This document shows positions 10,684 through 12,453 of a stretch of 64,000 nucleotides of DNA, in pieces. Position 1 is the first letter of the stretch, and every line of letters begins with the position of its first letter. Position numbers and translations under genes: made by a program. Source of the DNA: an uncultured Thermococci archaeon (GTDB taxonomy: Archaea > CAYQAE01 > CAYVLA01). Below the pieces are notes generated by a model. That model was not told the origin of the DNA. It saw only the letters and a program-made list of their open reading frames with translations, and did not search any database. Location: contig CAZJVP010000051.1 in assembly GCA_964549615.1 (NCBI GenBank), positions 58,740 through 122,739 on the forward strand, written 5' to 3'.

Positions 10684-12453
10684 CTAAAGGTAGGCCTCGG
10701 TGACGTACCGGTACATCATCCTGTTGCTGTTGAAATAGTAGGCTATCTTGCCGATCGAGTTCTTCATGAGCTCGATCCACTCGCTCCTTCTCTGGTAGAA
10801 GGTTGGGCCTATCACGTAGGAGAGCTTGCCGTATAGGTCGTCGAGTTCCCGGCTGCGGCGGGCCTCGGGGCTCAGACTCTCCTCGGGTGCCGGTCCTATG
10901 GACCAGCCGGTCACGCCCTCGATGCATCCCTCGACCCACCAGCCGTCCAAGACGCTGAAGTTAACCACGCCGTTGTGGGCCGCCTTCATGCCGCTGGTCC
11001 CGGAGGCCTCGAAGGGCGGTAGGGGCGTGTTCAGCCAGACATCGACCCCGGCGGTGAGCTTGGCCGCCATCTGCATGTTGTAGTCCTCGAGGTACACGAT
11101 GGGGATCTCGTTGCCGACCTCCCTGATGTGTCCGTGGATCTCCTCTATGAGCTGCTTGCCCCAGGTATCCTTGGGGTGTGCCTTCCCGGCGAACACGGCT
11201 TGTATCCGATGCTTCCTATTCGCGTCCTTCAGCCTTTCCAGATCCGCGAAGAGGAGGTTGGGTCGTTTGTAGGCGGTCGCCCTGCGCGCGAAACCGAGGG
11301 TCAGGACGGTGGGATCAAGGTTGATCTCTGTCTTCTTCCAGACGAAGTCAAGAAGCTCCTTCTTGGCCTGCATATGCGCGTCCCAGATCTCTTCATCCGG
11401 GATGATATCGACCCTCACGAGCAGGGCAGGCTCGTTTGCCCAGCCGGGCAGATACCTGTCGTACAGCCTCCTCATGCTCTCGCACGTCCATGTGTAGGAG
11501 TGCACGCCGTTGTTGATCGCGGTGATGTGGTGCCCCGGGAAGAGCTGCATGGAGAGATCCCTGTGCCTGTTGGCAACGCCGTTGACGTACTTGCTGAGAT
11601 TCAGGGCAAGTGCGGTCATGTTCAGCTTGTCCCGTCCGCCAAGCTGTTTGAGCAGATCCAACGGTATGATCGGCCCCATGATGGCCTGGACGAGGTCGTA
11701 GGGGAACTTGTCATGGCCCGCCTCAACCGGGGTGTGGGTGGTGAATATGCACAGGTCCCTCACCGTGTCTGGAGCCATGCCGTTCGCGCGGAGAAGCTCG
11801 ACCGCCAGCAGGCTCGAGTGGCCCTCGTTCATGTGGTATCGGCTGACCTTGAATCCCGCCGCCTCCAGCATGCGCACGCCGCCGATGCCGAGGACGATCT
11901 CCTGCTTCAACCTATACGCCTCGTCGCCGCCGTAGAGATAGTCGGTGATCGCCCTGTCTTGGGGCGCGTTGCCGTCCACATTCGTGTCCAGGAAGAGGAT
12001 TGATACCAGCCCGCCGGTGGGGCTGACGTGATCATAAAGCCACGCCTTCACGCGAACCTCCCTGCCCTCTATCTGCACCCTGACCTGACAGGGAAGCTCG
12101 TTCATGAACTTGGCAGGATCCCATTCCACGGGCTCCTCAATCTGCTTGCCTTCCTTGGTGATCCTCTGCCTCAGGTAGCCCTTCCTGCTAACCAGCGAAA
12201 CCGCGACGAGCGGTATCCTCATATCTGCGCTTGACCTTATCGTATCGCCGGCCAGTACCCCCAGTCCGCCGCTGTAGGTGGGCATGTCGTCGTTCAACCC
12301 GATCTCCATCGAGAAGTAGGCTACCCTCTTTCCCTCCAAGAAGGCGTGCCGGCAGTAGTCGCTGCAGAAGCGGTATGTCCTTCCGCGCACGTCGACCTTG
12401 TGCCTGTCTGGATCGTCTCCAATGGGGACTCCGCACTGCGGATCGATGAACAT
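10684..12453 (-). CDS. glgP: Alpha-glucan (glycogen/maltodextrin) phosphorylase, GT35, with N-terminal YHS-type metal-binding domain
   Basis: [24 protein letters not shown] is the GT35 signature; first 40 aa DPQCGVPI...[18 protein letters not shown] match YHS domain consensus (DPVCGM...YYFCSxxC). Confidence 0.7.
   Translation of the reverse strand: [589 protein letters not shown]

What the first reader, a model, noticed from the sequence alone, without database searches (positions are those of the whole stretch)
10684..12453. YHS metal-binding domain fused to the N-terminus of a GT35 alpha-glucan phosphorylase
The first ~40 residues (DPQCGVPI...[18 protein letters not shown]) match the YHS-domain consensus. 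That domain is known from copper ATPases and phenol hydroxylases. It is joined directly to the [14 protein letters not shown] phosphorylase core. A metal- or redox-sensing domain on a glycogen phosphorylase is not a standard architecture and could couple glycogen mobilisation to metal status.
Basis: partly seen in the sequence, partly recalled or inferred. Interest (0 to 1): 0.55.

Follow-up and report, generated by a model that had tools for sequence, protein, structure and literature searches.

The report
Metal-finger domain on archaeal glycogen phosphorylase
A glycogen-degrading enzyme of an uncultured archaeon carries a small, strongly conserved metal-binding finger at its front end; the same fusion is found in hundreds of archaeal and bacterial sequences but nobody has described what it does.

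Summary
The minus-strand ORF 10684-12453 (589 aa) is a short-form GT35 alpha-glucan phosphorylase (TIGR02094, 544 bits). Its first 41 residues are a YHS/TRASH treble-clef domain. That domain scores 26 bits in the whole protein (below Pfam's cut-off) and 32.5 bits scanned alone (above it); all 61 homologue N-termini match.

The start codon is supported by a conserved SD+ATG and by coding-type conservation. The conserved putative ligands are Asp4, Cys7, Cys30 and Cys34. Where ligand positions change they become almost only Asp or His, which suggests a Zn/Fe-type site rather than a Cu(I)-only one.

The fusion is common in databases but I found no paper on it. There are at least two separate clades: archaeal with a direct junction, and bacterial (anammox, Ignavibacteria, Omnitrophota) with a 20-25 aa linker. 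Unfused relatives and paralogues exist, so the domain is an add-on.

It sits where other GT35 enzymes carry oligomerisation or allosteric segments. I favour a metal-dependent assembly/regulatory module, which is inferred and untested.

Here the gene lies in a glycogen cluster, with no P-type ATPase, RND pump or second YHS domain detected in the 64 kb. Elsewhere, short-form phosphorylases, fused or not, often sit next to P-type ATPases. Interest is moderate.

The parts
10684..12453 (-). Complete CDS, 589 aa plus stop: YHS-fused short-form alpha-glucan phosphorylase
   Evidence: ORF list. Pfam and NCBIfam matches. The identical protein is called in public assemblies.
12331..12453 (-). N-terminal YHS/TRASH treble-clef domain, residues 1-41 (beta-hairpin 19-28, helix 32-40)
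12442..12444 (-). Asp4 codon, putative metal ligand 1 (first residue of the DPxC knuckle)
   Evidence: Invariant in 61 of 61 sequences. It is replaced by Cys (CPVC) in the L002/P0270 variant. Codon checked.
12433..12435 (-). Cys7 codon, putative metal ligand 2
   Evidence: Invariant in 61 of 61 sequences. Codon checked.
12364..12366 (-). Cys30 codon, putative metal ligand 3
   Evidence: Cys in 58 of 61 sequences; the other three have Asp.
12352..12354 (-). Cys34 codon, putative metal ligand 4
   Evidence: Cys in 57 of 61 sequences; the others have Asp (3) or Tyr (1). His occurs in further representatives.
10690..12324 (-). GT35 phosphorylase core, residues 44-588
   Evidence: TIGR02094 at 544 bits. 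Foldseek match to Segatella copri GP 9l6i/20yr at E about 1e-40, TM 0.77, 34% identity.
10984..10986 (-). Lys490 codon in EASGTSGMK, the expected pyridoxal-phosphate lysine
   Evidence: Motif located. Invariant in the family alignment. Equivalence to the PLP lysine of known phosphorylases rests on established knowledge of GT35.
12463..12468 (-). GAGAGG Shine-Dalgarno-like element, 9 nt before the ATG
   Evidence: Sequence. Conserved in the L081 relative while the surrounding spacer diverges.
9491..10651 (+). Context: GT4/GT5 glycogen-synthase-like glycosyltransferase, convergent with the phosphorylase, 32 bp from its stop
   Evidence: Pfam Glycos_transf_1, Glyco_transf_4 and Glyco_transf_5. 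Synteny is kept in L081-L083.
7730..9271 (+). Context: GH57 family alpha-glucan-active enzyme
   Evidence: Pfam Glyco_hydro_57 at E 1.5e-82. Synteny is kept.
6320..7681 (+). Context: second GT4/GT5 glycosyltransferase
   Evidence: Pfam. Synteny is kept.

Best explanation
The gene encodes a short-form, PLP-dependent alpha-glucan (glycogen/maltodextrin) phosphorylase. It belongs to a glycogen gene cluster in a probably Bathyarchaeia-like archaeon.

Its first 41 residues fold as a TRASH/YHS treble-clef finger. I infer that this finger holds one metal ion through Asp4, Cys7, Cys30 and Cys34, most likely a Zn2+/Fe2+-type ion. The finger's helix runs without a linker into the first strand of the N-terminal Rossmann domain. 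The finger is therefore fixed rigidly on the enzyme surface. By general Rossmann topology it should lie on the side away from the catalytic cleft.

That N-terminal position is where every characterised GT35 enzyme carries its oligomerisation or allosteric segment: the alpha-helical domain of S. copri GP, and the cap and AMP-site region of muscle and E. coli GP. I therefore propose that the finger is an accessory, metal-dependent assembly/regulatory module. In the metal-loaded state it is folded and sets the enzyme's quaternary state, and thereby its access to polymeric substrate. Metal loss or thiol oxidation would unfold it and change activity.

Shown: the ORF, both domains, ligand conservation, the fold class, the distribution and the add-on nature of the domain. 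Inferred: the identity of the metal, the surface position, and any effect on assembly or activity.
For: 1. Both domains are real and the enzyme looks catalytically competent. TIGR02094 scores 544 bits. GGLG (62-65), TTHTP (238-242), GKAHP (423-427) and EASGTSGMK (482-490) are present and conserved.

2. There is strong purifying selection on a four-residue ligand set. The loop between the ligands varies freely.

3. Ligand positions change almost only to other metal-ligating residues. Asp4 becomes Cys in L002/P0270. Cys30 becomes Asp in seven sequences. Cys34 becomes Asp in four sequences and His at least once. Only one sequence has Tyr.

4. The finger is predicted confidently, with pLDDT 86-93. 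Helix 32-40 abuts strand 42-47. The fold class is that of Zn-binding eL24, phenol hydroxylase and MYM/FCS fingers. This agrees with the published treble-clef classification (PMC4999995).

5. The domain is an add-on, not part of the fold. Most short-form relatives at 45-66% identity lack it. Unfused members nest inside the archaeal fused clade. One genome, CP070649, has a fused and an unfused paralogue. Decayed remnants occur in the bacterial clade (P0169, P0240).

6. The fusion appears in at least two separately supported clades with different junctions. The archaeal form has a direct junction and the bacterial form a 20-25 aa linker. Bootstrap support is 100 and 98. A split uniting all fused proteins appeared in 0 of 100 replicates. 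This recurrence points to a functional link.

7. In the closest solved enzyme, the segment before the core mediates oligomer assembly, and assembly controls substrate access (PMC12912991). The alignment to that enzyme starts at query residue 42 and chain residue 108 or 128.

8. There is a precedent for TRASH acting as an allosteric metal-responsive module in archaea: CopR, whose delta-TRASH mutant is less metal-sensitive (PMC7830388).
Against: No metal content, oligomeric state or activity was or could be measured. I had no model coordinates, so ligand geometry and the docking surface were not inspected. No multimer prediction was possible. A 41-residue Zn finger could equally be a passive stabiliser. 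The tree is neighbour-joining on a limited, unevenly sampled set. Deeper nodes are weak: the archaeal clade including its unfused members has 56% support. One ancient fusion followed by many losses is therefore not excluded. Local gene context offers no hint of a regulatory signal.
Confidence: 0.4

Rival explanations
1. Passive structural cap. The finger binds Zn permanently and only stabilises the N-terminal edge of a minimal phosphorylase core, for example against heat or proteolysis. It has no signalling or assembly role.
For: The TRASH/YHS fingers closest in fold, eL24 and the phenol hydroxylase alpha subunit, are treated as structural zinc-binding domains. The junction has no linker. Cys to Asp or His swaps fit a structural Zn site. 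No sensor-related genes lie nearby.
Against: Most family members, including close archaeal relatives and a paralogue in the same genome, do without the domain. The core therefore does not need a cap. The bacterial version holds the domain on a 20-25 aa linker, which is odd for a rigid cap. Recurrent gain and long retention are more typical of functional modules.
Confidence: 0.28
2. Heavy-metal (Cu+/Ag+) sensing or trafficking domain. Like the TRASH domains of archaeal CopR/CopM and the YHS domains of P1B ATPases, it binds Cu(I). It either switches glycogen breakdown in response to copper stress or docks to a copper ATPase.
For: The C-x22-C-x3-C spacing is the TRASH motif, and TRASH senses Cu in CopR. 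In Bathyarchaeota CP070759 the fused gene lies two genes downstream of an HMA-type P1B ATPase and a 48-aa stand-alone YHS protein. In a deltaproteobacterial MAG the fused gene follows an HMA-P1B ATPase by 203 bp on the same strand. An ignavibacterial fused gene lies near a CusB/RND-like system.
Against: The search of the 64-kb window with the query set found no P-type ATPase, RND pump or second YHS domain. The closest relatives share the glycogen-cluster context. P-type ATPases are just as frequent next to unfused phosphorylases: 13 of 139 against 4 of 29, p 0.5. The excess of extra YHS genes disappears once the two discovery loci are dropped (p 0.24). About 10% of archaeal fused proteins have Asp or His at a Cys ligand position, and Asp4 is invariant. 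These are poor ligands for Cu(I). The Met after Cys7, typical of 'CGM', is Val here and is not conserved.
Confidence: 0.15
3. Docking finger for a partner macromolecule: another glycogen enzyme, a P-type ATPase, or nucleic acid. FCS/MYM and eL24-type fingers act in this way.
For: The fold and weak profile matches point to zf-FCS/MYM and eL24, which mediate protein or RNA contacts. A conserved basic residue, Arg23, sits in the hairpin and is specific to the archaeal class. The phosphorylase family is recurrently adjacent to P-type ATPases.
Against: No partner is conserved next to the fused genes across lineages. No direct evidence exists.
Confidence: 0.1
4. Annotation artefact. The true start is Met49 or Met57, and the upstream 40 codons are untranslated.
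For: The whole-protein YHS score is below Pfam's cut-off. A few database homologues are annotated from an internal Met.
Against: The conservation pattern is that of a protein across 61 or more sequences, with invariant D, P, C, G and F. An SD-like element and the ATG are conserved while upstream DNA diverges. AlphaFold folds the segment with high confidence. The TIGR02094 model begins at residue 44, so Met49 and Met57 would truncate the core.
Confidence: 0.02

Closest known systems
Segatella copri glycogen phosphorylase (clade 2 GP; PDB 9L6I/20YR; PMC12912991)
   Same: It is the closest solved relative of the core. phmmer gives E about 1e-95 and Foldseek E about 1e-40, with TM 0.77 and 34% identity. 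It has the same TIGR02094-type catalytic core and PLP-lysine motif. It also lacks the tower helix of classical GPs.
   Different: S. copri GP has 852 aa. It carries an N-terminal loop plus an alpha-helical domain that builds a pentamer, and a C-terminal beta-sheet domain. It is AMP-regulated. The window protein has neither domain, since the alignment covers only chain residues 108-708. It has a 41-aa metal finger in place of the N-terminal domain.
Thermococcales maltodextrin phosphorylase and other DUF3417-containing archaeal GlgP (for example Thermococcus gammatolerans C5A1K5, PF11897+PF00343; PMC6355812)
   Same: It is an archaeal GT35 enzyme of the same broad subfamily. NF041129 matches at 448 bits over residues 42-588.
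   Different: The score is far below the equivalog cut-off of 1500. The roughly 96 model positions before the core and roughly 130 after it are absent here. DUF3417 is replaced by YHS.
YHS/TRASH treble-clef fingers: eL24, phenol hydroxylase, toluene monooxygenase and MMO alpha subunits, NosL, ZMYM5 TRASH
   Different: Those fingers sit in ribosomal proteins, monooxygenases, chaperones or chromatin proteins. None is attached to a glycosyltransferase-fold enzyme. Here the first ligand is Asp, not Cys.
TRASH domains of archaeal copper regulator CopR and chaperone CopM, and YHS N-terminal domains of P1B ATPases
   Same: The C-x(19-22)-C-x3-C motif is shared. These domains act as add-on metal-responsive modules that change the behaviour of the host protein. 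A YHS-HMBD-P1B ATPase lies directly upstream of a related, unfused phosphorylase in L121.
   Different: The host protein differs: an enzyme of carbon storage rather than a copper-homeostasis protein. No cop genes are present in this window. Ligand substitutions to Asp or His argue against Cu(I) specificity.
N-terminal regulatory segments of classical glycogen phosphorylases (muscle, yeast, E. coli)
   Same: The topological position is the same: immediately before the first core strand. In those enzymes this segment carries phosphorylation, AMP and dimer-interface functions (background; established GT35 knowledge).
   Different: There is no sequence or fold relationship. The regulatory function of the finger is hypothesis only.

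Membership tests
GT35 alpha-glucan phosphorylase, 'more_P_ylases' subfamily (TIGR02094 / PF00343) | Profile match above the curated cut-off | tested here: met
   TIGR02094 scores 544.4 bits against a cut-off of 191.7, covering model positions 1-598 of 600. PF00343 scores 93 bits against a cut-off of 27.
GT35 alpha-glucan phosphorylase, 'more_P_ylases' subfamily (TIGR02094 / PF00343) | PLP-binding lysine motif and glycine-rich GGLG loop | tested here: met
   EASGTSGMK at 482-490 (Lys490), GGLG at 62-65 and GKAHP at 423-427 are present. They are invariant or nearly invariant in 61 homologues. Mapping to catalytic roles rests on established knowledge.
GT35 alpha-glucan phosphorylase, 'more_P_ylases' subfamily (TIGR02094 / PF00343) | Two-Rossmann (GT-B) phosphorylase fold | tested here: met
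   The AlphaFold model has pTM 0.84. The best Foldseek hits are all glycogen or maltodextrin phosphorylases, with E 8e-41 to 1e-24. Some active-site loops have low pLDDT.
GT35 alpha-glucan phosphorylase, 'more_P_ylases' subfamily (TIGR02094 / PF00343) | Phosphorolysis of alpha-1,4-glucans | not testable with these tools
   This needs an enzyme assay.
YHS domain (PF04945) / TRASH | Profile match above Pfam's gathering score | tested here: met
   The score is 26.2 bits (below 30.3) within the whole protein. It is 32.5 bits (E 8.8e-8) for residues 1-43 alone. All 61 homologue N-termini match, best E 1.5e-15.
YHS domain (PF04945) / TRASH | C-x(19-22)-C-x3-C cysteine motif | tested here: met
   Cys7-x22-Cys30-x3-Cys34. 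Conservation is 100%, 95% and 93%.
YHS domain (PF04945) / TRASH | Treble-clef fold (knuckle, hairpin, helix) | tested here: met
YHS domain (PF04945) / TRASH | Binds a metal ion | not testable with these tools
   Inferred from ligand conservation and from Cys-Asp-His exchanges. It needs ICP-MS or a structure.
Thermococcales maltodextrin phosphorylase (NF041129 equivalog) | Score above the equivalog cut-off, with the N- and C-terminal extensions | tested here: not met
   447.9 bits against a cut-off of 1500. Only model positions 97-684 of 816 are matched.
Clade-2 / DUF3417-type glycogen phosphorylase (S. copri type) | N-terminal alpha-helical (DUF3417) domain and C-terminal beta-sheet domain | tested here: not met
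   No PF11897 hit. The alignment to 9l6i begins at chain residue 108 and ends at 708 of 852. The protein ends with the core.
Archaeal cop (copper resistance) system component | Genomic association with a P1B ATPase, CopR or CopM | tested here: not met
   No P-type ATPase, RND pump or second YHS domain was found in the 64-kb window. The association is seen in some other genomes (L087, L039) but is not specific to fused forms.

The most novel reading that the evidence does not exclude
The finger is a genuine metal- or redox-responsive switch. It gates glycogen mobilisation in anaerobic archaea and bacteria, including anammox bacteria. Separately, the whole short-form phosphorylase family is functionally tied to P-type cation or heavy-metal ATPases, for example as part of an energy-stress or hypoxia regulon. 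In this reading the YHS domain was captured from a neighbouring ATPase or chaperone gene.
Probability: 0.2. Interest if true: 0.7.

Novelty: new variant of a known kind. Interest (0 to 1): 0.42.

Why it matters
The searches made here turned up no study of how archaeal or other short-form (about 550 aa) alpha-glucan phosphorylases are regulated. These enzymes lack the N-terminal segments through which classical enzymes respond to phosphorylation and AMP.

A conserved metal finger has been acquired recurrently at exactly that position. It is found in Bathyarchaeia-type archaea, anammox bacteria, Ignavibacteria, Omnitrophota and others. This gives a concrete, testable handle on a possible new control mode for carbon-reserve use in abundant sediment and wastewater anaerobes.

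If the finger proves merely structural, the result is a modest annotation note. If it responds to metal or thiol redox state, it would be, to my knowledge, the first metal-switched GT35 enzyme.

Tried and rejected
- AFDB50 fold search of the full model: the library was not available.
- Profile search of the finger against PDB sequences: nothing significant. The best hits were a chance holin match and eL24 at E 0.4, so fold search was used instead.
- Representative-library search with a profile of the finger plus junction. It was meant to count fused clusters. The list was dominated by multi-YHS repeat proteins and short fragments, so only a lower bound came out: at least 30 fused representatives among the top 150.
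Extra YHS genes and P-type ATPases near fused loci (29) were compared with unfused loci (139). No enrichment was specific to the fusion: p 0.5 for ATPases, and p 0.24 for YHS genes after removing the two loci that prompted the test.
- Context of the fused and unfused paralogues in CP070649. Neither lies in a glycogen cluster, so this was uninformative.
- NCBIfam scan of ten other window ORFs for taxonomic clues. Only a citramalate synthase was hit. The organism is inferred from the names of homologues only.
- A single origin of all fused forms: rejected on the NJ bootstrap, 0 of 100. One ancient fusion with many losses cannot be excluded.
- My first ligand-counting regular expression mis-registered some sequences, giving 'DCSR' classes. 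Those were read by eye as DCCC.
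Full report
**What is in the sequence**

The coordinates 10684-12453 hold one ATG-started ORF of 589 codons on the minus strand. Its product begins [41 protein letters not shown]. It continues without a break into [29 protein letters not shown].

Pfam finds the phosphorylase family PF00343 at E 1.9e-26. It finds YHS (PF04945) over residues 3-40 at E 8e-6 and 26.2 bits, just under the 30.3-bit gathering score. NCBIfam TIGR02094, the alpha-glucan family phosphorylase subfamily 'more_P_ylases', covers residues 44-588 end to end at 544 bits against a cut-off of 191.7.

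When residues 1-43 are scanned alone, YHS scores 32.5 bits (E 8.8e-8), above the cut-off. All 61 homologous N-termini match YHS, the best at E 1.5e-15. Weaker hits go to the related TRASH, zf-FCS and L24e models.

**Is the N-terminus translated?**

Yes, on four grounds.
- A GAGAGG element lies 9 nt before the ATG.
- An alignment with the locus of an 89%-identical relative shows a poorly conserved intergenic spacer. The GAGAGG and the ATG are conserved, and downstream the sequence is highly conserved with scattered differences that look mostly synonymous.
- In a 61-sequence alignment (65-89% identity to the window protein over the whole length), D4, P5, C7, G8 and F29 are invariant. P10, R23, G24, Y27, C30, C34 and F38 are at least 90% conserved. 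The loop at positions 12-21 varies freely.
- The exact 589-aa product is called from the same start in independent public assemblies.

The alternative starts, Met49 and Met57, would cut into the TIGR02094 core.

**The finger**

AlphaFold2 with the family alignment predicts residues 1-41 with pLDDT 86-93 in the full-length model. The domain alone has mean pLDDT 88.7. It consists of a knuckle, a hairpin at 19-28 and a helix at 32-40. The helix runs directly into core strand 42-47.

The conserved candidate ligands are Asp4, Cys7, Cys30 and Cys34.

Across about 240 fused sequences the ligand positions change almost only to other ligating residues.
- Asp4 becomes Cys in a CPVC variant.
- Cys30 becomes Asp in seven sequences.
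- Cys34 becomes Asp in four sequences and His at least once.
- One sequence has Tyr at position 34.

This pattern indicates a real metal site. By inference it tolerates carboxylate and imidazole, so it is Zn/Fe-like rather than a soft Cu(I)-only site.

**The enzyme**

The core keeps the GGLG loop (62-65), TTHTP (238-242), GKAHP (423-427) and EASGTSGMK (482-490) with the expected PLP lysine. All are invariant or nearly so in the family.

The full model (pTM 0.84) matches only glycogen and maltodextrin phosphorylases. The best match is Segatella copri GP at 34% identity, TM 0.77 and E about 1e-40. By sequence the alignment to that enzyme starts at query residue 42 and chain residue 108 or 128, and stops about 145 residues before its C-terminus.

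So the window protein is a minimal core. It lacks the alpha-helical N-domain (DUF3417 in Thermococcales GlgP; PMC6355812) and the C-terminal beta domain of clade-2 GPs. In S. copri the N-domain builds the pentamer, and the state of assembly controls substrate access (PMC12912991).

**Distribution**

Of the 120 best homologues (66-89% identity, about 589 aa), 114 already carry the precomputed PF04945+PF00343 pair. Where named, they are 'alpha-glucan family phosphorylase' from Bathyarchaeia/Bathyarchaeota MAGs. A few are labelled Korarchaeota, Heimdallarchaeota or Thermoproteota. The six exceptions are a Cys34-to-Tyr variant, several products called from an internal Met, one sequence with an intact motif that simply lacks the flag, and one 549-aa product that begins at the core.

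A scan of GTDB species genomes returned mostly unfused short-form relatives at 45-66% identity from many bacterial phyla and some archaea. It returned four fused ones: Bathyarchaeota L002, Brocadiaceae L015, Ignavibacteriales L018 and Deltaproteobacteria L039.

Using the Brocadiaceae protein as query, 113 of the 120 best hits are again fused. They are named from Candidatus Jettenia (UniProt I3INE6), Kuenenia, Omnitrophota, Elusimicrobiota, Planctomycetota, Ignavibacteriales, Glassbacteria, Syntrophaceae and Deltaproteobacteria.

Junctions fall into two discrete classes. The archaeal class has a direct junction. The bacterial class has a 20-25 aa linker.

A neighbour-joining tree of the cores (126 sequences, 539 columns) was bootstrapped on a 69-sequence subset, with these results:
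- 100% support for the fused subclade that holds the window protein.
- 98% support for the main bacterial fused clade.
- 0% support for any split uniting all fused proteins.
- Unfused archaeal proteins L001, L004 and L035 lie among the archaeal fused ones (56% for the joint clade).
- L039 lies apart from both fused clades.

L035 is an unfused paralogue in the same genome (CP070649) as the fused P0033. Two members of the bacterial clade retain only a decayed stub of the finger. The finger is therefore an accessory module. It was gained at least twice, or gained once very early and lost often. It has been kept over large clades and is occasionally lost.

**Context**

In the window the gene converges on a GT4/GT5 glycosyltransferase (9491-10651). 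Upstream of that lie a GH57 enzyme (7730-9271) and a second GT4/GT5 (6320-7681). This is a glycogen or alpha-glucan cluster. On the other side are a SIS/MurQ-like gene and a DUF6259 protein.

The arrangement is identical in the closest relatives but not in more distant fused genomes. A search of the whole 64 kb found no P-type ATPase, RND pump or second YHS domain.

**Testing the metal-coupling idea**

Three unrelated fused loci have metal-transport neighbours.
- In Bathyarchaeota CP070759 the order is FeoB, FTR1, DtxR-like, PadR, HMA-P1B ATPase, a 48-aa YHS protein, PfkB and then the fused phosphorylase.
- In Jettenia there is a YHS protein, and a P2-type ATPase lies directly upstream.
- In an ignavibacterium an OEP/CusB-like/RND system lies downstream.

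I therefore compared 29 fused and 139 unfused loci with one detector: a YHS HMM plus phmmer with the transporter proteins, within +/-7 kb. P-type ATPases occur near 4 of 29 fused and 13 of 139 unfused loci (p 0.5). Extra YHS domains occur near 4 of 29 against 4 of 139 loci (p 0.03, but p 0.24 once the two discovery loci are removed). The association is not specific to the fusion.

What did emerge is a family-wide pattern. In 8 of 168 loci a P-type ATPase is the immediate same-strand neighbour, with a gap under 350 bp. About 0.3 would be expected under a rough background of three such genes per 3000. Both P2-type and P1B-type ATPases were confirmed by Pfam, in Methanosarcinales, NC10, Omnitrophota, Jettenia, a deltaproteobacterium and metagenome contigs.

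This is circumstantial. The lineages are not all independent, and the background is an estimate.

**Mechanism**

Shown:
- an intact phosphorylase core;
- a well-folded treble-clef finger with a selected four-residue ligand set;
- rigid attachment before the first core strand;
- add-on status and recurrence of the fusion.

Inferred:
- The finger binds one Zn/Fe-type ion.
- From Rossmann topology, it sits on the face away from the catalytic cleft.
- This N-terminal position is used by all characterised GT35 enzymes for oligomerisation and allostery. The finger therefore most likely acts as a metal-dependent assembly or regulatory module (confidence about 0.4).

TRASH acting as an allosteric metal-responsive module has an archaeal precedent in CopR (PMC7830388).

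Rivals and their estimated weights:
- a passive structural cap (0.28);
- a docking finger for a partner (0.1);
- a mis-called start (0.02).

**Novelty and verdict**

The architecture is abundant in sequence databases and is picked up automatically by Pfam. Full-text searches found no paper linking YHS or TRASH with a phosphorylase or with glycogen. No solved or characterised GT35 enzyme has this domain.

I class it as a new variant of a known kind. It is real, conserved and testable, and a specialist would be moderately surprised by it. The interest score is about 0.4. The score would rise substantially if metal or redox switching were demonstrated.

Noticed in passing
Related loci L003, L050, L162, L123, L121, L039, L085, L129 (immediate neighbours); also L091, L112, L057, L079, L016: Short-form alpha-glucan phosphorylase genes, fused to YHS or not, are recurrently next to P-type ATPase genes on the same strand, with gaps of 11-350 bp in 8 of 168 loci. 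About 0.3 would be expected on a rough background. Both P2-type (Cation_ATPase_N/C) and P1B-type (HMA/YHS/HMBD) ATPases occur. Other recurrent neighbours are response regulators, Pyridox_ox_2, PfkB and pyruvate kinase, which resembles an energy-stress or hypoxia-type cluster.
   Followed up: partly
L026 and L030 (Synergistaceae genomes), upstream of the phosphorylase core: The phosphorylase reading frame stays open for about 550 codons upstream of the core. This suggests a different, large N-terminal fusion or a read-through from the upstream gene. It was not analysed.
   Followed up: no
window 12541-12553 and 12572-12587 (minus strand), about 90-135 nt upstream of the ATG: Two islands, GAACCATTTTCAA and CTGTCCTTTTTCCAAC, are conserved against the L081 relative within an otherwise diverged intergenic spacer. 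They may be promoter or operator elements of the phosphorylase gene.
   Followed up: no
window 12653-13567 (-) and 14226-16415 (+); L081 3542-7806: A SIS/MurQ-like etherase gene and a 729-aa DUF6259 protein flank the phosphorylase gene. In relatives a BcrAD_BadFG-type ATPase gene sits with them. The order is conserved, which may indicate a second sugar-processing module next to the glycogen cluster.
   Followed up: no
CP070649.1 (Bathyarchaeota bin87): L084 8001-9770 and L035 5968-7644: One genome encodes both a YHS-fused phosphorylase (P0033) and an unfused paralogue, at 72% and 64% identity to the window protein. Neither lies in a glycogen cluster.
   Followed up: partly
Proteins P0169 and P0240 (bacterial fused clade); L002/P0270 (archaeal): P0169 and P0240 keep only a stub of the finger (MMKDPVCGMIAKKQ... 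and ...DPVYKM...) joined to the linker, which looks like internal deletion or decay. L002/P0270 carry a CPVC knuckle and a longer insert, giving a four-Cys version of the site.
   Followed up: partly
Proteins P0241, P0243, P0252, P0260, P0269 and others from the representative search: Many proteins carry 3-6 tandem YHS repeats, often at the C-terminus of RND membrane-fusion (CusB-like) proteins or the N-terminus of P1B ATPases. Individual repeats also show Cys to Asp or His swaps at ligand positions.
   Followed up: no
window 16446-56000: Nine of ten large ORFs scanned (418-960 aa) have no NCBIfam match at E 1e-10. Only 57288-58910 (-) is recognisable, as citramalate synthase. The window comes from a poorly characterised lineage. 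The source is a 152-kb metagenome contig, ENA ERZ27245602.
   Followed up: no
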